DNA of 64,000 nt from Escherichia coli 042 (GTDB lineage: Bacteria > Pseudomonadota > Gammaproteobacteria > Enterobacterales > Enterobacteriaceae). A program made the translations under genes and the position numbers. The stretch is from assembly GCF_000027125.1 (NCBI RefSeq), contig NC_017626.1. One strand, 5' to 3'. The notes below the pieces were generated by a model that saw nothing but the letters and a program-made list of their open reading frames with translations, searched no databases and was not told the origin of the DNA. Positions 3,551 to 60,055 of the stretch are shown in pieces (the first letter of the stretch is position 1; each line of letters begins with the position of its first letter).

Positions 3551-4369
3551 TTAAATCAGGTGGCTATAAATGAACCGGGCAATGCTGTCGGTGGTGTTAT
3601 CACCAATCACAATGTTGGCGCGCGCTTTTACCGCGTCATCGGCGTTGCCCATCGCCACGCCTGTACCAGCGGCTTCCAGCATACTGATATCATTAAAGTT
3701 ATCGCCGAATGCCACGACGTTTTCCATCGACCAACCTTGTGCCTCAACCCATTTCGTCAAACGTTTACCTTTGCTGTTGCCGCCGCGTGCAATATCAACC
3801 TGATCGTGCCAGGACCATTCACACTCCAGTCCCAGTTCATGTTCGACATGCTTACCAAAATGCTGCAATTGCGGCAGGTCATCGTGCGTCAGGGCGAACT
3901 TCCATACGGCGTTAACTTGTTGCGCCGTTTCAGCCAGAGAAGCGACTTGTGTGAAAGTCGGACGCTGTTCCGGCGGCAGGGTTTGCGCCCAGTTAGACGT
4001 GCGAATGACATGCCCGGTCGGGTGCTCATAGACCATTGCATCATCGACATACATCAGACCGTGAATGTGGTGTTCATTCAGCATCTCAATGAGTTGCAGG
4101 GCTTTATTAACGGGCATTGGGTCCGCTTCCAGCACGGTTTTTGCATGATAATCATACAAATAGGTGCCATTACAGCAAATAGCAGGTGTATCCAGCGCCA
4201 GCGCCTGATAAAAAGGATGAATAGCGACGTGATGGCGACCTGTGACGATGATTAATTGATAGCCTGCTTCGCGAGCGCGGGCCAGGGCTTCTATCGATGA
4301 TGGAAGCAAGGTCTTTTTCGGGGTCAATAAGGTGCCGTCTAAGTCGAGAGCAATCACGCGTGTGGTCAT
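3551..4369 (-). CDS. ybhA: HAD-family (Cof-like) sugar/pyridoxal phosphate phosphatase YbhA
   Basis: Track ORF trimmed to internal Met (MTTRVIALDLDGTLL, HAD motif I); 272 aa. Confidence 0.9.
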   Translation of the reverse strand: MTTRVIALDLDGTLLTPKKTLLPSSIEALARAREAGYQLIIVTGRHHVAIHPFYQALALDTPAICCNGTYLYDYHAKTVLEADPMPVNKALQLIEMLNEHHIHGLMYVDDAMVYEHPTGHVIRTSNWAQTLPPEQRPTFTQVASLAETAQQVNAVWKFALTHDDLPQLQHFGKHVEHELGLECEWSWHDQVDIARGGNSKGKRLTKWVEAQGWSMENVVAFGDNFNDISMLEAAGTGVAMGNADDAVKARANIVIGDNTTDSIARFIYSHLI

Positions 4370-5559: not shown

Positions 5560-6513
5560 TTAACCTATCTCCTGTAACGCATGTCTCTGGCGTTCGACGA
5601 TATTGGTCCACAAATTGTCTTTATCGTCAGTCCACAAATTAATCAGCAAGGCAAAAAAGCGTTCAGCTGCCGGAGAAAGCACGGCATCTTTGCGGCGAAT
5701 AATCCCCAATGTCCGACGTATAACCGGTTCCACCAGCGGGATACCAATAATCGAAGAGTAGGGCGCATGAGGCATTGCCAGGCCTGGAAGCGCCGAAATC
5801 CCTAGTCCTGCCTCCACCAGTCCTAATGACGTCGAAAGATGACGCACTTCGTAAAACCAGTCCAGCTTCCAGGGCTTGTCGGCTAGCTGTTGTTCTATCA
5901 ACAGTCGGTTGCCGCTGGAGGAGCGTACGCCAATCATTTTGTAACCCACTAACTCCTGCCATTCTACAAGCTGCTTTTTGGCCAATGGATGGTCACGCCG
6001 ACAGGCCAGCACGAACGGCTCGTTGACCAGGGGGGTAAAATCAATGGATGAATTTGTGACGTTGTTCATGTTTATGCCAAAGTCTGATTCGTTACACAGC
6101 ACCGATTCCATGCAATTATTCGTGCCTTGTTCCAGAATCCGCACTTTAATATTGGGATACAGCTCATTAAATTTACCAATTGCCAGTGGTAAAAAATAAA
6201 ATACTGCGGTCGGAATACACGCTAACGTCACCATACCACGATGATAAGCATTCATATCACGAATATTAAAAAGCGTTTCATCGAATTTCTTTATTAATTC
6301 CCGCGCCTCCGGGAGCAACCTTTTTCCTGCTTTTGTTAACGTAACCTTGCGAGTTGTACGCTCAAATAGTTGAATATGTAAATCCTCCTCCATCTTTTTT
6401 ATTCTTCGCGTTAATGCAGGTTGCGTAATATTGAGTAATTTAGCGGCATTGTTAAATGAACTGGACTCTGCCAGTATGACAAATGCCTTCATACTTGATA
6501 ATTCATGCTTCAT
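5560..6513 (-). CDS. ybhD: LysR-family transcriptional regulator YbhD
   Basis: Track ORF trimmed to Met at MKHELSSMKAFVILAESSSFNNAAKLLNITQPALTRRIKKME (LysR HTH); divergent from ybhH. Confidence 0.85.
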   Translation of the reverse strand: MKHELSSMKAFVILAESSSFNNAAKLLNITQPALTRRIKKMEEDLHIQLFERTTRKVTLTKAGKRLLPEARELIKKFDETLFNIRDMNAYHRGMVTLACIPTAVFYFLPLAIGKFNELYPNIKVRILEQGTNNCMESVLCNESDFGINMNNVTNSSIDFTPLVNEPFVLACRRDHPLAKKQLVEWQELVGYKMIGVRSSSGNRLLIEQQLADKPWKLDWFYEVRHLSTSLGLVEAGLGISALPGLAMPHAPYSSIIGIPLVEPVIRRTLGIIRRKDAVLSPAAERFFALLINLWTDDKDNLWTNIVERQRHALQEIG

Positions 6514-6696
6514 TATTACTCCGGAAAATGGAAGCGTCGATTTTGGGTGGCTGGCCGTTAAAAATTTTAACTGCATTTAGCCAACTTAAATTAATGAAAA
6601 AATGTTATTAATCGTTGAGCTAAAGTCATTAGAGATGCTTTGCCCTTAATGTAACCATATCGCAATAAGTTATGTTTTTAAATTGAGGGCATTATT

Positions 6697-7749
6697 ATGA
6701 AAAAAATACCCTGCGTGATGATGCGAGGTGGAACCTCGAGGGGCGCGTTCCTGTTAGCGGAACATTTACCCGAAGATCAAACGCAGCGCGATAAAATATT
6801 GATGGCAATTATGGGTTCCGGTAACGATTTGGAAATTGACGGTATTGGCGGCGGTAATCCGCTGACCAGTAAAGTCGCCATTATTAGCCATTCCAGCGAT
6901 CCGCGTGCTGATGTCGATTATCTGTTTGCTCAAGTTATCGTCCATGAGCAACGTGTCGATACCACGCCTAACTGCGGCAATATGCTGTCTGGCGTTGGGG
7001 CATTCGCCATTGAAAATGGTTTGATTGCAGCGACTTCGCCAGTTACCCGCGTACGTATCCGCAACGTCAATACGGGTACGTTCATCGAAGCTGATGTGCA
7101 AACGCCAAATGGTGTTGTCGAGTACGAGGGTAGCGCCAGAATTGACGGCGTACCGGGTACTGCCGCACCGGTTGCGCTCACTTTCCTGAATGCCGCCGGA
7201 ACCAAAACCGGAAAAATCTTCCCGACTGATAATCAGATTGATTATTTTGACGATGTCCCGGTGACCTGTATCGATATGGCGATGCCAGTTGTCATTATTC
7301 CTGCTGAATATCTGGGAAAAACAGGCTATGAATTACCGGCGGAGCTGGATGCCGACAAAGCATTATTAGCCCGCATTGAATCTATCCGTCTACAAGCGGG
7401 TAAAGCAATGGGCTTAGGCGATGTCAGTAATATGGTTATCCCTAAACCTGTGCTTATTTCTCCAGCGCAGAAAGGCGGAGCAATTAATGTGCGTTATTTT
7501 ATGCCGCATTCTTGCCATCGCGCGCTGGCGATAACCGGTGCTATTGCCATTTCCAGTAGTTGTGCATTGGAAGGCACCGTCACCCGACAAATCGTCCCTT
7601 CTGTAGGATACGGCAATATCAATATTGAACACCCCAGTGGTGCGCTCGACGTTCATTTAAGTAATGAAGGTCAGGATGCCACGACGTTACGCGCATCTGT
7701 TATTCGGACAACCAGAAAAATATTTTCCGGTGAAGTTTTTCTTCCCTGA
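6697..7749 (+). CDS. ybhH: PrpF/AcnD-accessory family isomerase YbhH
   Basis: 350-aa ORF; recalled YbhH sequence and gene order. Confidence 0.85.
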   Translation: MKKIPCVMMRGGTSRGAFLLAEHLPEDQTQRDKILMAIMGSGNDLEIDGIGGGNPLTSKVAIISHSSDPRADVDYLFAQVIVHEQRVDTTPNCGNMLSGVGAFAIENGLIAATSPVTRVRIRNVNTGTFIEADVQTPNGVVEYEGSARIDGVPGTAAPVALTFLNAAGTKTGKIFPTDNQIDYFDDVPVTCIDMAMPVVIIPAEYLGKTGYELPAELDADKALLARIESIRLQAGKAMGLGDVSNMVIPKPVLISPAQKGGAINVRYFMPHSCHRALAITGAIAISSSCALEGTVTRQIVPSVGYGNINIEHPSGALDVHLSNEGQDATTLRASVIRTTRKIFSGEVFLP

Positions 7750-7824
7750 AAAAATTCGTTGTCAGGATAAGGACAATCAATAAAGGACTTCTGTATGAGT
7801 CATACAGAAAGAACAGGATTTTAA

Positions 7825-9258
7825 ATGAATAAAAAATCGTTATGGAAGCTAATTCTGATATTAGCGATCCCATGTATTATTGGCTTTATGCCAGCTCCGG
7901 CAGGATTAAGCGAACTGGCGTGGGTGCTTTTTGGTATTTACCTGGCGGCCATTGTGGGGCTGGTTATCAAGCCTTTCCCGGAACCTGTCGTACTGTTAAT
8001 TGCCGTTGCTGCCTCAATGGTGGTGGTCGGTAACTTATCCGACGGTGCGTTTAAGACCACCGCCGTATTAAGTGGTTACTCTTCAGGTACCACCTGGCTG
8101 GTGTTCTCGGCGTTTACCTTAAGCGCCGCATTTGTGACCACCGGCTTAGGTAAACGTATAGCCTATCTGCTGATTGGTAAAATCGGTAACACCACGCTGG
8201 GTCTGGGTTACGTTACGGTATTCCTCGATCTGGTACTGGCTCCGGCAACACCGTCTAACACCGCGCGTGCGGGCGGCATTGTGTTACCGATCATCAACAG
8301 CGTGGCGGTGGCTTTGGGGTCAGAACCGGAAAAAAGCCCGCGTCGTGTTGGACATTACCTGATGATGTCCATTTACATGGTCACCAAAACCACCAGCTAT
8401 ATGTTCTTTACCGCAATGGCGGGGAACATTCTGGCGCTGAAAATGATCAACGATATTCTGCACCTGCAAATTAGCTGGGGTGGATGGGCGCTGGCCGCCG
8501 GATTGCCGGGTATCATTATGCTGCTGGTCACCCCGCTGGTGATTTACACCATGTATCCGCCAGAAATTAAGAAGGTGGATAACAAAACCATCGCCAAAGC
8601 GGGCCTTGCCGAACTGGGACCGATGAAAATCCGCGAAAAAATGCTGCTCGGTGTCTTCGTGCTGGCGCTGCTGGGCTGGATTTTCAGTAAGTCACTGGGG
8701 GTTGATGAATCCACCGTGGCAATCGTTGTTATGGCGACTATGCTGCTGCTGGGTATCGTTACCTGGGAAGACGTGGTTAAAAATAAAGGCGGCTGGAATA
8801 CCTTAATCTGGTACGGCGGTATTATCGGCTTAAGCTCCTTATTATCGAAAGTTAAATTCTTCGAATGGTTAGCTGAAGTCTTTAAAAATAACCTGGCATT
8901 TGATGGTCACGGTAACGTTGCTTTCTTCGTTATTATTTTCCTCAGCATTATCGTGCGTTATTTCTTCGCTTCCGGTAGTGCCTATATCGTTGCCATGTTA
9001 CCGGTATTTGCCATGCTGGCGAACGTCTCCGGCGCACCGTTAATGTTAACCGCGCTGGCACTGTTGTTCTCCAACTCCTATGGCGGCATGGTTACTCACT
9101 ATGGCGGCGCGGCAGGTCCGGTCATCTTTGGCGTGGGTTATAACGATATTAAATCCTGGTGGTTGGTCGGTGCGGTACTGACGATATTAACCTTCCTGGT
9201 GCATATCACCCTTGGCGTGTGGTGGTGGAATATGCTGATCGGCTGGAACATGCTGTAA
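7825..9258 (+). CDS. ybhI: DASS-family anion transporter YbhI
   Basis: 477-aa polytopic membrane ORF; gene order ybhH-ybhI-ybhJ. Confidence 0.85.
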   Translation: MNKKSLWKLILILAIPCIIGFMPAPAGLSELAWVLFGIYLAAIVGLVIKPFPEPVVLLIAVAASMVVVGNLSDGAFKTTAVLSGYSSGTTWLVFSAFTLSAAFVTTGLGKRIAYLLIGKIGNTTLGLGYVTVFLDLVLAPATPSNTARAGGIVLPIINSVAVALGSEPEKSPRRVGHYLMMSIYMVTKTTSYMFFTAMAGNILALKMINDILHLQISWGGWALAAGLPGIIMLLVTPLVIYTMYPPEIKKVDNKTIAKAGLAELGPMKIREKMLLGVFVLALLGWIFSKSLGVDESTVAIVVMATMLLLGIVTWEDVVKNKGGWNTLIWYGGIIGLSSLLSKVKFFEWLAEVFKNNLAFDGHGNVAFFVIIFLSIIVRYFFASGSAYIVAMLPVFAMLANVSGAPLMLTALALLFSNSYGGMVTHYGGAAGPVIFGVGYNDIKSWWLVGAVLTILTFLVHITLGVWWWNMLIGWNML

Positions 9259-9387
9259 ATATACTCGTCATACTTCAAGTTGCATGTGCTGCGTCTGCGT
9301 TCGCTCACCCCAGTCACTTACTTATGTAAGCTCCTGGGGATTCACTCGATTGTCGCCTTCCTGCAACTCGAATTATTTAGAGTATAT
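9259..9387. repeat. ERIC (IRU) enterobacterial repetitive intergenic element
   Basis: ~129 bp with imperfect terminal inverted repeats and the recalled ERIC core GTAAGCTCCTGGGGATTCAC / AAGTGACTGGGGTGAGCG. Confidence 0.7.
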
Positions 9388-9440
9388 CCATTTATTATCT
9401 TTCTGCGCACTTCTCGGTGCGCAGATATCTGGAGCATTTG

Positions 9441-11702
9441 ATGATCAAGTTATCTGAAAAAGGCGTGTTTCTCGCCAGTAATAACGAAATAATTGCCGAA
9501 GAACATTTCACCGGCGAAATTAAAAAAGAAGAAGCAAAAAAAGGCACTATTGCCTGGTCTATTCTCTCTTCTCATAATACGTCCGGAAATATGGATAAAC
9601 TTAAAATTAAGTTTGATTCATTAGCCTCTCACGATATTACCTTTGTTGGTATTGTACAGACCGCTAAAGCGTCCGGTATGGAACGTTTCCCGCTGCCGTA
9701 TGTGCTGACCAACTGCCATAACTCACTTTGCGCCGTCGGCGGCACCATTAACGGTGATGACCATGTTTTTGGTTTATCGGCGGCTCAGCGTTATGGCGGT
9801 ATTTTTGTGCCTCCGCATATTGCGGTCATCCATCAATATATGCGTGAGATGATGGCAGGCGGCGGCAAAATGATCCTCGGGTCAGACAGCCACACCCGTT
9901 ACGGTGCATTAGGGACAATGGCAGTCGGTGAGGGCGGCGGCGAGTTGGTAAAACAGCTGCTTAATGACACCTGGGATATCGACTATCCGGGAGTTGTTGC
10001 GGTGCATCTGACCGGAAAACCAGCGCCGTATGTGGGGCCACAGGATGTGGCGCTGGCTATCATCGGTGCCGTGTTCAAAAACGGCTACGTCAAAAACAAA
10101 GTGATGGAATTCGTAGGTCCCGGTGTTGCTGCGCTCTCTACCGATTTCCGTAACAGCGTTGACGTTATGACCACGGAAACGACCTGTTTAAGTTCTGTCT
10201 GGCAAACCGATGAAGAAGTCCATAACTGGCTGGCGCTGCACGGTCGCGGCCAGGATTACTGCCAGCTTAACCCTCAACCGATGGCGTACTACGATGGCTG
10301 CATCAGCGTTGATTTAAGCGCCATCAAACCAATGATTGCGCTGCCGTTCCACCCGAGCAACGTGTATGAAATCGACATGCTGAACCAGAACCTGACCGAC
10401 ATTCTGCGTGAGATTGAAATTGAGTCCGAACGCGTGGCGCACGGTAAAGCCAAACTCTCGCTGCTGGATAAAGTGGAAAATGGTCGCCTGAAAGTGCAGC
10501 AGGGGATTATCGCGGGCTGTTCTGGCGGTAACTACGAAAACGTCATCGCGGCGGCGAATGCACTGCGCGGTCAATCCTGTGGCAATGACACCTTCTCGTT
10601 AGCGGTTTACCCGTCATCACAGCCGGTGTTTATGGATTTAGCCAAAAAAGGCGTGGTAGCAGATTTGATTGGCGCAGGCGCAATCATCAGAACCGCGTTC
10701 TGCGGCCCATGCTTTGGCGCGGGCGATACGCCAATCAACAACGGTTTGAGTATTCGCCACACCACGCGTAACTTCCCGAACCGCGAAGGCTCTAAGCCAG
10801 CCAATGGGCAGATGTCAGCGGTGGCGTTGATGGACGCTCGTTCTATCGCTGCGACTGCGGCAAACGGTGGCTATTTAACCTCTGCCAGCGAACTTGATTG
10901 CTGGGACAACGTACCGGAGTACGCCTTCGATGTAACTCCGTATAAAAACCGTGTTTATCAGGGCTTTGTGAAAGGGGCGACCCAGCAACCATTGATTTAC
11001 GGACCGAACATAAAAGACTGGCCAGAATTGGGGGCGCTAACTGACAATATCGTCCTCAAAGTGTGCTCGAAGATCCTCGACGAAGTGACCACCACCGACG
11101 AACTGATCCCTTCCGGTGAAACCTCTTCTTATCGTTCAAATCCGATTGGTCTGGCGGAGTTTACCCTGTCACGCCGCGATCCAGGTTATGTTGGCAGAAG
11201 TAAAGCGACTGCTGAGCTGGAAAATCAGCGTCTGGCGGGGAATGTCAGCGAGCTGACAGAGGTGTTTGCGCGCATTAAGCAGATTGCTGGTCAGGAGCAT
11301 ATTGATCCGCTGCAAACTGAAATTGGCAGCATGGTCTATGCGGTGAAACCAGGCGATGGTTCAGCGCGTGAGCAGGCGGCGAGCTGCCAGCGTGTGATTG
11401 GCGGTCTGGCGAATATTGCCGAGGAGTACGCGACTAAACGCTACCGTTCTAACGTCATCAACTGGGGGATGTTACCGCTGCAGATGGCGGAAGCACCAAC
11501 GTTTGAAGTGGGGGATTACATTTACATCCCTGGCATTAAAGCAGCGCTGGATAATCCGGGTACGACGTTTAAAGGTTATGTGATCCATGAAGATGCGCCG
11601 GTAACGGAAATTACGCTTTACATGGAAAGCCTGACGGCCGAAGAGCGCGAGATTATCAAGGCGGGTAGTTTGATTAACTTCAATAAAAACCGTCAGATGT
11701 AA
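9441..11702 (+). CDS. ybhJ: Aconitase-family protein YbhJ
   Basis: Track ORF trimmed to [11 protein letters not shown]; 753 aa, aconitase-like. Confidence 0.85.
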
Positions 11703-37472: not shown

Positions 37473-37521
37473 TCACTCAGGGGCGCGGAACCGCGCCCCC
37501 TGTTCTGACGGGTGAAGAATC

Positions 37522-43751: not shown

Positions 43752-43781
43752 AGACGAACAGGGAGGGCCGCCCTCCCTGAA

Positions 43782-52310: not shown

Positions 52311-53224
52311 TTTTTACCCTTAAGTACATACTTTGGACGCTGCTTAACTTCAATGTAAATTCTACCAATATACTCACCGAGCACTCCAATCCCAATTAAC
52401 TGGATGCCGCCAAGAAATAATATTGATACAAGAATTGAAGGGTATCCAGGTACATTATTACCAAAAATTAATTTATCAATTATCATCCATGAACCGTATG
52501 TAAATGATATACATGCAATAAATAACCCAATATAGGTCCACATGCGAAGCGGGAATGTTGAGAAGCTAGTGATCCCTTCCAGCGCCAAGTTCCATAGCTT
52601 CCATCCATTGAACTTTGTGCTTCCTGCAACGCGTTCTGCTCGCGCATATTCTACGACATCGGTTCGACCACCAACCCAGCTCAGCACACCCTTCATAAAC
52701 AGGTTTCGTTCTGGCATGAGCTTAATATTTTCTACTACTTCGCGAGACATGAGCCGGAAGTCGCCAACATTCTCTTCTATCTGAGGGTTGCTGATTTTGT
52801 TATGAAGTTTATAGAACCACTCAGCAGATTTACGCTTCAGCCTGCTGTCAGTGGAGCGGTCAGAGCGTTTAGCCAGAACCATATCTGCACCGGCCTGCCA
52901 TTTCTCTATCAAGTGAGGAATAACTTCGATAGGGTCTTGCAGATCAACGTCAATCGGGATAATTGCCTCCCCGGTAGCATGGTCCAGACCTGCGAACAGG
53001 GCGGGTTCTTTGCCGAAGTTACGTGTGAACGACAGCGAAACCACAAGCGGGTCGGCAACAGCGAGCTCGTTGATAATTGATTCTGTAGCGTCTTTGCTGC
53101 CATCGTTTATGAAGACTATCTCGACTTCATGCTGCTGAAGCCCTTCAAATTCGCGCACAGTTTTATAAAAAATAGGTATCGTGGCCTCTTCGTTAAAGAC
53201 CGGAACGACTAAAGAAATTTTCAT
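52307..53224 (-). CDS. gtrB: Bactoprenol glucosyltransferase GtrB
   Basis: 305 aa; GT2 N-terminal domain ([13 protein letters not shown]...DGSKD) plus C-terminal TM helices. Confidence 0.9.
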
Positions 53225-59728: not shown

Positions 59729-60032
59729 CCATGTGTATTAGAGTTAGAAAACACGAGGCAAGCGAGAGAATACGCGGCTTGCACGCGAATTGGCGTTAAA
59801 GACGGCTCAAAGAAATATCTTTTATTTTTTAACTGGTTAGATAATTGCAATGGCAGTCACTGAAGAGGCATCTCTTGCCATAAAACTGTCATCACTCATC
59901 TTGACAAATGTTAAAAAAGCCGTTGCTTTGGGGATAACCCGGTAAGGCCGGAGTTTTATCTCGCCACAGAGTAAATTTTGCTCATGTTTGACAGCGGAGT
60001 TTACGCTGTAACAGAAATATTATGGTGAGAAA

Positions 60033-60055
60033 CTGTTTTTTTATCCAGTATAATT
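60033..60055 (+). promoter_or_regulatory. uvrB LexA box and -10 element
   Basis: CTGTTTTTTTATCCAG (CTGT-N8-ACAG-like) followed by TATAAT. Confidence 0.75.

What the first reader, a model, noticed from the sequence alone, without database searches (positions are those of the whole stretch)
7790..7808. Perfect 19-bp palindrome in front of ybhI
TCTGTATGA-G-TCATACAGA is a perfect 9+1+9 palindrome 17 bp upstream of the ybhI start. It has CTGT...ACAG ends like a LexA box but with a 9-nt rather than 8-nt spacer. It could be a regulator site or an mRNA hairpin affecting ybhI translation.
Basis: seen in the sequence. Interest (0 to 1): 0.3.

Follow-up and report, generated by a model that had tools for sequence, protein, structure and literature searches.

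The report
Conserved stem-loop before ybhI ribosome site
The palindrome in front of the E. coli transporter gene ybhI is real and conserved in Escherichia, Salmonella and part of Citrobacter; it is not a LexA (DNA-damage) box, and most likely forms an mRNA hairpin tied to the gene's ribosome-binding site, though an operator for an unknown regulator is not excluded.

Summary
TCTGTATGA-G-TCATACAGA lies at 7790-7808 and extends to a perfect 10+1+10 palindrome (7789-7809), in the 75-nt gap between ybhH (PrpF-type isomerase) and ybhI (DASS anion transporter).

It is single-copy and nearly invariant in 5,333 complete E. coli genomes. In 13 lineages of Escherichia, Salmonella and Citrobacter the arms TCTGTA/TACAGA do not change, while the 6-7 central bases are almost random. 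The 5 bases to the Shine-Dalgarno CAGGA never change in number, although the rest of the spacer cannot be aligned between genera.

The only arm substitution is A->G. It arose twice, gives a U·G wobble on the sense strand, and sits between the stem's two G-C pairs. One lineage has a shorter loop but keeps the stem.

LexA is not supported: the spacing is CTGT-N9-ACAG, S. enterica carries ACGG, and no promoter overlaps the site. A published Nac ChIP-seq peak at ybhI +21 fits an ATA-N9-TAT site at 7829-7843, not the palindrome. YbhD ChIP-exo found no site here.

Best reading (about 0.45): a sense-strand mRNA stem-loop that is part of the ybhI translation-initiation region. Main rival (about 0.3): an operator for an unidentified dimeric regulator. 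The element is unannotated, and I found no paper that contains its sequence.

The parts
7789..7809 (+). Perfect 10+1+10 inverted repeat TTCTGTATGA-G-TCATACAGAA. Predicted sense-strand RNA hairpin with a 9-bp stem and AGU loop, about -8 to -9 kcal/mol.
7790..7795 (+). Conserved core of the left arm, TCTGTA, invariant in 13 lineages.
7796..7802 (+). Central 7 nt (TGAGTCA in E. coli). Hypervariable between lineages, and 6 nt long in Citrobacter sp. MGH106.
7803..7808 (+). Conserved core of the right arm, TACAGA. The only variant is TACGGA (U·G wobble), in S. enterica and in Citrobacter sp. MGH106.
7814..7818 (+). CAGGA, the Shine-Dalgarno of ybhI. It always lies 5 nt after TACAGA (1 flanking base plus 4 variable bases), whereas the distance from the Shine-Dalgarno to ATG varies from 6 to 8 nt.
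7825..9258 (+). ybhI, a DASS-family anion transporter (Pfam Na_sulph_symp).
6697..7749 (+). ybhH, a PrpF-family isomerase, the upstream cistron. The gap to ybhI is 75 nt.
7829..7843 (.). ATAAAAAATCGTTAT (ATA-N9-TAT) inside the first codons of ybhI. It fits the published Nac motif and lies 10 bp from the published Nac ChIP-seq summit. It is a neighbour of the palindrome, not part of it.
7795..7824 (+). Nine-codon mini-ORF (MSHTERTGF*) starting inside the left arm, with its stop abutting the ybhI ATG. It is lost in E. albertii, Escherichia sp. MOD1-EC7003, Salmonella and Citrobacter, so it is not the conserved feature.

Best explanation
The inverted repeat is a stem-loop in the sense (ybhH-ybhI) mRNA and forms one unit with the ybhI ribosome-binding site: a 6-10 bp stem, a freely varying loop, exactly 5 nt, then the Shine-Dalgarno CAGGA. 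I infer that it acts after transcription. One possibility is that it sets the 5' edge of the ribosome landing site and keeps the Shine-Dalgarno from pairing with upstream sequence. Another is that it acts as a barrier to exonucleolytic decay between the enzyme cistron and the transporter cistron. Either would set how much YbhI is made relative to YbhH. Shown here: the palindrome, its conservation pattern, the wobble substitutions, the fixed spacing to the Shine-Dalgarno, and the absence of LexA, Nac or promoter features. Inferred: that the RNA rather than the DNA is the active form, and which of the two post-transcriptional roles applies.
For: (1) The hairpin is predicted in every lineage that has the repeat, at -4.5 to -9.3 kcal/mol. 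It is the main feature of the RNAalifold consensus, and its core pairing probability is 0.9-0.99 in 7 of 9 sequences modelled. (2) The only substitution in the 12 core arm positions over 13 lineages is A->G in the right arm. It gives a U·G pair on the sense strand and would give C·A on the antisense strand. It arose twice: S. enterica has G while S. bongori has A, and Citrobacter MGH106 has G while other Citrobacter have A. It lies at the one pair flanked by both G-C pairs, where a wobble costs least. (3) Loop length is free at 3, 4, 5 or 7 nt. MGH106 lost one central base, which changes half-site spacing but keeps a 7-bp stem. (4) The inner pairs behave like a stem end. Pair 8 is U-A, U·G or open. 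Pair 9 is G-C in E. coli, U-A in E. albertii and G/A in intermediate lineages. (5) The distance from stem to CAGGA is identical in all 13 lineages, although indels occurred between the Shine-Dalgarno and ATG (6-8 nt) and the upstream spacer cannot be aligned between E. coli and Salmonella. (6) No promoter-like site lies in the spacer on the + strand, and no similar dyad lies in the ybhD-ybhH promoter region of any lineage. (7) Paralogous DASS transporter genes carry a different hairpin at the same kind of position, between an AcnB-like gene and the transporter, and 6 of its 13 pairs show compensatory changes.
Against: There is no statistically supported covariation. The core pairs never vary, and the shuffle controls are not exceeded. 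Sequence-invariant arms with a hypervariable centre, across genera whose flanks are saturated, is the classic signature of a dimeric DNA-binding site. A purely structural RNA stem would be expected to show some full compensatory changes. In two sequences (E. coli SCPM-O-B-8794 and C. youngae) the hairpin competes with other folds. The C. gillenii clade, C. sedlakii, Klebsiella, Edwardsiella, Enterobacter and Pseudocitrobacter manage without it. No expression, structure-probing or RNA-end data for this site could be found.
Confidence: 0.45

Rival explanations
1. The repeat is a DNA operator for an unidentified homodimeric transcription factor. Each monomer would read TCTGTA, and the 7-bp centre would not be contacted. 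The factor would control ybhI from an internal promoter or act as a roadblock.
For: The half-sites are invariant and the spacer hypervariable across three genera, with N7 spacing fixed in 12 of 13 lineages. The geometry TGTA-N7-TACA (15 bp, odd length) resembles LysR-type boxes and RpiR-family sites: RccR TGTAGT-N3-ACTACA and HexR TTGT-N7-8-ACAA (PMC5489143). A LysR-type gene, ybhD, is adjacent, and YbhD represses ybhH (PMC9068703). That paper's table lists 'ybhH, ybhI' as predicted YbhD sites but gives no sequence. Another LysR-type protein, Nac, does bind about 40 bp away.
Against: No sigma-70-like promoter lies in the spacer, and the -35-like hexamers upstream sit at different distances in E. 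coli and Salmonella. There is no second copy of the dyad at the operon promoter or elsewhere in the cluster in any lineage. The conserved blocks in the ybhD-ybhH region are different, ATTAAT-N11-ATTAAT and AAAGTCATTAG. YbhD ChIP-exo found one site, at yihQ (PMC8464067). The MGH106 variant changes the spacing yet keeps the arms. A fixed distance to the Shine-Dalgarno has no obvious meaning for a DNA site. The E. coli HexR target region at zwf (TTGTAATTTTCTTACGG) does not resemble the site.
Confidence: 0.3
2. The repeat is a LexA (SOS) box, making ybhI damage-inducible.
For: The ends are CTGT...ACAG. From memory, the sequence equals the recA SOS box TACTGTATGAGCATACAGTA with one extra central base; this was not checked here.
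Against: The family motif is CTGT-N8-ACAG (PMC4951493). This site has N9, and selection has kept N9 in 12 of 13 lineages. S. enterica has ACGG, and the only N8 variant (MGH106) also has ACGG. No promoter overlaps the site, whereas the real uvrB box in this window is fused to its -10 TATAAT. None of the papers retrieved for ybhI, ybhH or ybhD appeared from its listed title or abstract to concern LexA or the SOS response; their texts were not searched for LexA.
Confidence: 0.02
3. The repeat is the Nac-binding site, or the second weaker half of a tetrameric Nac site, behind the published Nac ChIP-seq peak at ybhI.
For: A Nac ChIP-seq peak (coverage 46) lies at +21 from the ybhI start. ybhI RNA was 0.38-fold after Nac induction (PMC5217608, Additional file 3). 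Nac is a LysR-type protein, and such proteins can occupy two sites about 30-40 bp apart.
Against: The Nac motif is ATAagnaaaanttAT (PMC9853098). ATAAAAAATCGTTAT at 7829-7843 fits it and is centred 10 bp from the summit. The palindrome is centred 47 bp away and contains no ATA-N9-TAT. The two elements have different distributions: most Citrobacter have the palindrome but no ATA-N9-TAT, while Edwardsiella and Intestinirhabdus have the reverse.
Confidence: 0.04
4. The ATG inside the left arm starts a translated 9-codon upstream ORF that is coupled to ybhI (TAA-ATG), and the palindrome is incidental to it.
For: ATG 7795 is preceded by AAGGA at a 7-nt spacing, and its stop abuts the ybhI ATG. The ORF is kept, with amino-acid changes, in E. 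coli, E. whittamii and two cryptic Escherichia lineages.
Against: The start codon or the frame is lost in E. albertii, Escherichia sp. MOD1-EC7003, all Salmonella and all Citrobacter that keep the palindrome. Nothing is annotated there in RefSeq K-12.
Confidence: 0.03
5. The repeat is a chance palindrome without function, conserved through low divergence.
For: About a dozen perfect 10-bp-arm palindromes are expected per genome by chance (extrapolated). Several clades have lost it without losing the gene cluster.
Against: Eleven of 12 arm columns are invariant, against none of the non-Shine-Dalgarno columns around them, in the 9-sequence alignment. The arms survive between genera whose remaining spacer is unalignable.
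Confidence: 0.08

Closest known systems
Intercistronic mRNA stem-loops that set relative expression within operons (for example the REP hairpin of malE-malF, the papB-papA hairpin, the puf operon hairpins). Recalled from general knowledge, not tested here.
   Same: It is a stable hairpin between two cistrons of one operon, here enzyme then membrane transporter. It has no U-tract, so it is not a terminator, and its loop sequence is free.
   Different: It is single-copy and AU-rich with only 2-3 G-C pairs, and it is not a REP or BIME repeat. It is locked at 5 nt from the downstream Shine-Dalgarno, which suggests a role in translation initiation rather than only 3'-end protection. No RNA-end data are available.
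LexA / SOS box of Gammaproteobacteria (CTGT-N8-ACAG).
   Same: The CTGTAT half-sites are in inverted orientation.
   Different: The spacer is 9 rather than 8 nt, and this is conserved. There is no overlapping promoter. S. enterica has ACGG. It lies in an intercistronic spacer.
LysR-type and RpiR-type dyad operators (T-N11-A boxes such as ATAC-N7-GTAT; RccR TGTAGT-N3-ACTACA; HexR TTGT-N7-8-ACAA).
   Same: It is a 15-bp interrupted dyad, TGTA-N7-TACA, of odd length, with half-site centres one helical turn apart. LysR-type genes (ybhD, nac) act on this locus.
   Different: It is not in the divergent promoter region. Its sequence is unrelated to the conserved blocks there and to the Nac motif. No ChIP support exists for YbhD at this locus.
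Hairpin upstream of paralogous DASS transporter genes in Enterobacter, Lelliottia, Raoultella, Phytobacter, Mixta and others
   Same: It occupies the same place, between an aconitase-family or related enzyme gene and a YbhI-like transporter gene, and it has no U-tract.
   Different: That hairpin is longer and G+C-rich, lies 40-60 nt from the start codon, and shows real covariation (6 of 13 pairs). The ybhI stem is short and sequence-invariant. The two share no sequence homology.

Membership tests
LexA (SOS) box, Gammaproteobacteria | Dyad CTGT-N8-ACAG (16-bp core) | tested here: not met
   The spacer is 9 nt in E. coli and in 12 of 13 lineages. The motif is taken from PMC4951493.
LexA (SOS) box, Gammaproteobacteria | CTGT and ACAG conserved in orthologous sites | tested here: not met
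   S. enterica (salamae and enterica) and Citrobacter MGH106 have ACGG.
LexA (SOS) box, Gammaproteobacteria | Overlaps or adjoins a promoter it can occlude | tested here: not met
   No promoter-like site lies on the + strand in 6400-9600 near the site. By contrast the uvrB box at 60033-60048 abuts TATAAT.
LexA (SOS) box, Gammaproteobacteria | LexA binding and damage-inducible expression | not testable with these tools
   No ChIP or expression data for LexA at ybhI were found.
Nac-binding site | Match to ATA-N9-TAT (ATAagnaaaanttAT) | tested here: not met
   The palindrome contains no ATA-N9-TAT. The match is at 7829-7843.
Nac-binding site | Coincides with the in-vivo Nac peak | tested here: inconclusive
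   The peak summit is at +21 (window about 7846). The palindrome centre at 7799 is 47 bp away, and the ATA-N9-TAT centre at 7836 is 10 bp away.
LysR-type (YbhD) operator | Interrupted dyad with T-N11-A in the regulator/target divergent promoter region | tested here: not met
   The site is 1.1 kb from the ybhD-ybhH promoter. No similar dyad lies there in 13 lineages. The conserved blocks there are different.
LysR-type (YbhD) operator | Bound by YbhD in vivo | tested here: not met
   The published YbhD ChIP-exo lists a single site, at yihQ (PMC8464067, supplement). This covers one growth condition only.
Intrinsic (Rho-independent) terminator | G+C-rich stem followed by a U-tract | tested here: not met
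   On the + strand the stem is followed by AAGAACAGGA. The - strand was flagged weakly, with 3 G-C pairs and tail TCCTTTATTG, but that flank is not conserved.
Repetitive extragenic elements (REP/BIME and similar) | Many copies per genome | tested here: not met
   The median is one place per genome in 5,333 E. coli genomes.
Any Rfam family | Covariance-model match | tested here: not met
   Nothing was found at the site at E<=1, and nothing at the gathering threshold in 14 related loci.
Structured cis-regulatory mRNA hairpin | Pairing kept across species, including through changes | tested here: inconclusive
   Pairing is kept in all 13 lineages. There are U·G wobbles on the sense strand and one G-C/U-A exchange at pair 9. 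The core never varies, and the shuffle controls are not exceeded.
Structured cis-regulatory mRNA hairpin | Lies on the transcribed strand inside a transcript | tested here: inconclusive
   ybhH and ybhI are on the same strand, 75 nt apart, with no terminator or promoter between them. Co-transcription itself is not shown: the EcoCyc operon column in PMC5217608 lists ybhH and ybhI separately.
Structured cis-regulatory mRNA hairpin | Effect on translation or stability | not testable with these tools
   This requires reporter fusions or RNA-end mapping.

The most novel reading that the evidence does not exclude
The element is a three-part translational switch. The left arm (UUCUG) is an anti-Shine-Dalgarno, the right arm (ACAGAA, or ACGGAA in S. 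enterica) is a Shine-Dalgarno mimic that normally occupies it, and the real CAGGA lies 5 nt downstream. A trans-acting factor that binds or removes the right arm, such as a small RNA, a nuclease cut or a protein, would let the left arm capture the Shine-Dalgarno and shut off the transporter independently of the enzyme. The invariant C of CAGGA, which a Shine-Dalgarno does not need, would pair with the G of the left arm.
Probability: 0.1. Interest if true: 0.55.

Novelty: new member of a known kind. Interest (0 to 1): 0.3.

Why it matters
ybhD-ybhHIJ is an uncharacterised but widely conserved enterobacterial cluster: a LysR regulator, a PrpF isomerase, a DASS transporter and an aconitase-family hydratase, probably for a tricarboxylate. 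This work identifies a discrete, strongly constrained cis-element that controls, or is coupled to, expression of the transporter. It also separates that element from the nearby Nac site. That gives whoever studies the cluster a precise 21-bp target for mutagenesis, and it removes ybhI from the list of candidate SOS genes. It is a useful annotation rather than a surprise.

Tried and rejected
- **Rfam:** no match at the site or in related loci.
- **HexR (YebK):** the TGTA-N7-TACA geometry resembles RpiR-family sites. The E. coli zwf-yebK region shows TTGTAATTTTCTTACGG, which is unlike the palindrome. HexR is described as a local zwf regulator in Enterobacteriales (PMC5343134).
- **YbhD:** there is no ChIP-exo peak at the locus. 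The supplements of PMC9068703 held as text give no motif.
- **Nac:** the published peak is explained by ATA-N9-TAT at 7829-7843.
- **Mini-ORF:** not conserved.
- **Long-range helix between the ybhH stop region and the Shine-Dalgarno:** RNAalifold proposed CCCUGA pairing with CAGG, suggesting translational coupling. Both sides are invariant for other reasons, and Salmonella keeps the palindrome with a different stop context, GGAAUAA.
- **Anti-Shine-Dalgarno switch:** blocking the right arm in silico lowers Shine-Dalgarno accessibility in 4 of 13 lineages only. I kept this only as the novel case.
- **Covariation statistics:** not significant.
- **Replacement hairpin in the C. gillenii clade (ATCGCGAA...TTCGCGAT):** present, but the spacer does not fold better than shuffles.
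- **Transcription start sites:** two look-ups in the Cappable-seq supplements by coordinate prefix found nothing, and the files may be truncated.
- **Literature search for the sequence itself:** no paper contains it.
- **Motif search elsewhere:** there is no second TCTGTA-N7-TACAGA in the window beyond a 2-mismatch chance-level hit, and none in about 0.5 Mb of related loci.

Full report
**Observation**

Window 7790-7808 reads TCTGTATGAGTCATACAGA, a perfect 9+1+9 inverted repeat. One further pair on each side (T7789, A7809) makes it 10+1+10. It lies in the 75-nt spacer between two ORFs on the + strand, 6697-7749 and 7825-9258. RefSeq annotates these as ybhH and ybhI. Pfam assigns them to the PrpF and Na_sulph_symp (DASS transporter) families. 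The divergent LysR gene ybhD lies upstream, and the aconitase-family gene ybhJ lies downstream.

The window is E. coli but not K-12, at 98.7% identity over this stretch. A perfect palindrome with 10-bp arms is rare in the window: 2 are seen against 0.17 expected. Extrapolated to a whole genome, about a dozen are expected by chance, so the repeat needs further evidence to count as a feature.

**Conservation within E. coli**

The 31 bases around the repeat occur once per genome in 5,333 of 5,426 complete genomes. No feature is annotated under them.

Two alleles account for nearly all genomes, and they differ at C/A 7788, just outside the repeat. Comparing the identity bands of the two searches shows that at most 17 genomes carry any further difference in 7784-7814. 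In four strains aligned directly, seven positions of the spacer vary but none lies in the repeat.

**Conservation between species**

A scan of species-representative genomes gave the cluster ybhD / ybhH-ybhI-ybhJ in Escherichia, Citrobacter, Intestinirhabdus, Edwardsiella, the Klebsiella oxytoca group and Entomohabitans. A protein search followed by contig look-ups added five more groups:
- Salmonella bongori
- S. enterica subsp. salamae and some subsp. enterica
- C. freundii
- Pseudocitrobacter
- Enterobacter hormaechei and K. aerogenes

Thirteen lineages share one architecture:
- TCTGTA, then 7 nt (6 nt in Citrobacter sp. MGH106), then TAC(A/G)GA
- one flanking base plus four variable bases
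- CAGG(A/G)
- 6-8 nt, then ATG

These lineages are five Escherichia, S. bongori, two S. enterica, C. youngae, C. freundii, two unnamed Citrobacter and C. koseri.

The pattern of variation is sharp:
- The centre is almost random: TGAGTCA, TGAATAA, CTAACCA, TTAACAA, TTTAATA, TTACCCG, CTTAATA, TAACGAA and others.
- The four bases before CAGGA vary.
- The rest of the spacer cannot be aligned between E. coli and Salmonella.
- The twelve core arm positions show a single kind of change.
- In the nine-sequence alignment, 11 of 12 arm columns are invariant, as is CAGG, and no other column is.

The repeat is degenerate in C. sedlakii. It is replaced by unrelated sequence in the C. gillenii clade. It is absent from Klebsiella, Edwardsiella, Intestinirhabdus, Enterobacter and Pseudocitrobacter. 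The element is therefore real, under purifying selection, and confined to the Escherichia-Salmonella-Citrobacter group.

**What it is not**

*LexA box.* The gammaproteobacterial LexA motif is CTGT-N8-ACAG (PMC4951493). This site has N9, and the N9 spacing is what has been conserved. S. enterica carries ACGG. The only N8 version (MGH106) also has ACGG. No promoter-like hexamers overlap the site. The same window holds the genuine uvrB SOS box, CTGTTTTTTTATCCAG, fused to a TATAAT. The half-sites do resemble LexA half-sites. From memory, the sequence equals the recA box plus one central base, but this was not checked, and the defining spacing fails.

*Nac site.* A published Nac ChIP-seq table lists a peak of coverage 46 at +21 from the ybhI start. 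It also gives a 0.38-fold ybhI RNA ratio after Nac induction (PMC5217608, Additional file 3). The Nac motif is ATAagnaaaanttAT (PMC9853098). ATAAAAAATCGTTAT at 7829-7843 fits it and is centred 10 bp from the summit. The palindrome is centred 47 bp away and lacks the motif. The two elements also have different species distributions.

*YbhD operator.* There is no support for this. YbhD ChIP-exo found one site, at yihQ (PMC8464067). The conserved blocks of the ybhD-ybhH region are ATTAAT-N11-ATTAAT and AAAGTCATTAG. No TCTGTA-type dyad occurs there in any lineage.

*Other rejected readings.*
- It is not a terminator on the + strand and not a repeat family.
- It matches no Rfam family.
- The 9-codon ORF that starts in the left arm is not conserved.
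- No paper in the library contains the sequence.
- K-12 RefSeq annotates nothing there.

**RNA hairpin or DNA operator**

*For an RNA hairpin on the sense strand:*
- The stem is predicted in every lineage at -4.5 to -9.3 kcal/mol. It is the main feature of the consensus fold.
- Loop length varies between 3, 4, 5 and 7 nt. MGH106 lost a central base, which alters half-site spacing but leaves a 7-bp stem.
- The only arm substitution is A->G, which turns U-A into U·G on the sense strand (C·A on the other strand).
- That substitution arose independently in S. enterica (S. bongori keeps A) and in MGH106.
- It affects the one pair flanked by both G-C pairs, where a wobble is cheapest. In a stem this short and AU-rich, other single changes would abolish the hairpin, which may explain why nothing else is seen.
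- Pair 8 is U-A, U·G or open. Pair 9 is G-C in E. coli, U-A in E. albertii, and mismatched in intermediate lineages.
- The stem ends exactly 5 nt before CAGGA in all 13 lineages, although indels occurred between CAGGA and ATG. This ties the element to the ribosome-binding site rather than to any promoter, and no promoter is evident.
- By analogy, paralogous DASS transporter genes carry another hairpin between an AcnB-like gene and the transporter gene. There, 6 of 13 pairs show compensatory change.

*For a DNA operator:*
- Invariant 6-bp arms with a free 7-bp centre, across genera whose flanks are saturated, is what a dimeric helix-turn-helix site looks like.
- A purely structural stem should by now show at least one full compensatory exchange in its core, and it does not. 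The formal covariation measures are not above the controls.
- The geometry TGTA-N7-TACA resembles LysR-type and RpiR-type sites.

*Weighing.* I put the RNA reading at about 0.45 and the operator at about 0.3. The remainder is spread over a Nac-related role, the mini-ORF, chance, LexA (0.02), and possibilities not listed.

**Mechanism**

The shown facts are the repeat, its conservation pattern, the sense-strand wobble, the loop freedom, and the locked distance to the Shine-Dalgarno. That the RNA is the active form is an inference.

I infer one or both of two roles. The hairpin may fix the 5' boundary of the ybhI ribosome landing site and insulate its Shine-Dalgarno from upstream sequence. Or it may act as a barrier to exonucleases between the enzyme and transporter cistrons, setting their ratio. 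Which role applies cannot be decided here.

I tested two more elaborate ideas:
- A helix between the ybhH stop region (CCCUGA) and CAGG was proposed by RNAalifold. Salmonella does not support it, because it keeps the palindrome with a different stop context.
- A switch in which the left arm acts as an anti-Shine-Dalgarno once the right arm is occupied. This is thermodynamically possible in 4 of 13 lineages only. I keep it as the most novel reading not excluded.

**Novelty and value**

The element is unannotated, and I found no description of it in the searchable literature. It belongs to well-known kinds, either an intercistronic or ribosome-site-proximal stem-loop or a dyad operator. It gives a precise handle on the expression of an uncharacterised transporter, it separates the element from the adjacent Nac site, and it removes a false SOS candidate. 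Interest is modest.

Noticed in passing
window 7829-7843: ATAAAAAATCGTTAT (ATA-N9-TAT) in codons 2-7 of ybhI fits the published Nac motif. It lies 10 bp from a published Nac ChIP-seq summit (ybhI +21, coverage 46; ybhI RNA 0.38-fold on Nac induction). It is present in Escherichia, C. koseri, Intestinirhabdus and Edwardsiella, and absent from most Citrobacter.
   Followed up: yes
window 7795-7824: Nine-codon ORF MSHTERTGF* with its own AAGGA. Its start codon lies inside the left arm and its stop TAA abuts the ybhI ATG. It is kept only in E. coli and its closest relatives.
   Followed up: yes
L024, L027, L028, L030, L033, L034, L025, L054, L032, about 3945-3980 in each locus: Paralogs of ybhI (about 60% identity) have a long G+C-rich hairpin between an AcnB-like aconitase gene (886 aa in L027) and the transporter gene. 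Six of its 13 pairs show compensatory changes. In the Enterobacter group it is followed by the invariant ATTCAGGGACCCTTTTCTCATGGGTGAGATATG. It matches no Rfam family.
   Followed up: partly
window 9264-9387 (- strand): A sub-threshold Rfam match to V_AS5 (49.7 bits, E 4e-9) fills most of the ybhI-ybhJ spacer. In L006 and L007 the ybhJ match starts 115-125 nt closer to ybhI than in this window, in K-12, and in E. albertii and E. whittamii. The stretch therefore looks like an inserted repeat element, possibly ERIC-like (a guess from memory).
   Followed up: no
window 8290-8541 (- strand): A sub-threshold Rfam match to Ysr283 (41.8 bits), antisense inside ybhI. It probably reflects coding-sequence similarity.
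   Followed up: no
window 6590-6612 and 6622-6632: The ybhD-ybhH promoter region holds two blocks conserved from Escherichia to Edwardsiella: ATTAAT-N11-ATTAAT and AAAGTCATTAG. They are candidate YbhD operator sequences and are unrelated to the ybhI palindrome.
   Followed up: partly
window 24000-30000, and 60031-60050 / 60126: A lambdoid prophage (HK97/CUS-3-like replication, nin and Q region, 95-97% identity) lies between ybhI and uvrB. It puts the uvrB SOS box (AACTGTTTTTTTATCCAGTATAAT) and the uvrB start 52 kb from ybhI. In K-12, from memory of the uvrB position, the distance is about 12 kb.
   Followed up: partly
window 22973-22991, 37480-37499, 43759-43779: Three other perfect palindromes with arms of 9-10 bp: ATTAGCCGAGTCGGCTAAT, GGGGCGCGGAACCGCGCCCC and CAGGGAGGGCCGCCCTCCCTG.
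   Followed up: no
window 52499-52513: This is the only other exact TGTA-N7-TACA in the window (TGTAAATGATATACA). Two matches were seen against 0.54 expected.
   Followed up: no
L004 2093-3097: In E. coli strain VG888-46E9 an IS1 element sits just after a shortened ybhH. The palindrome and the 5' part of ybhI are missing.
   Followed up: no
L045 (C. koseri NCTC10786): ybhD, ybhI and ybhJ give only fragmentary protein matches and ybhH gives none, so the cluster looks degraded. The palindrome, CAGGG and ATG are still in place.
   Followed up: no
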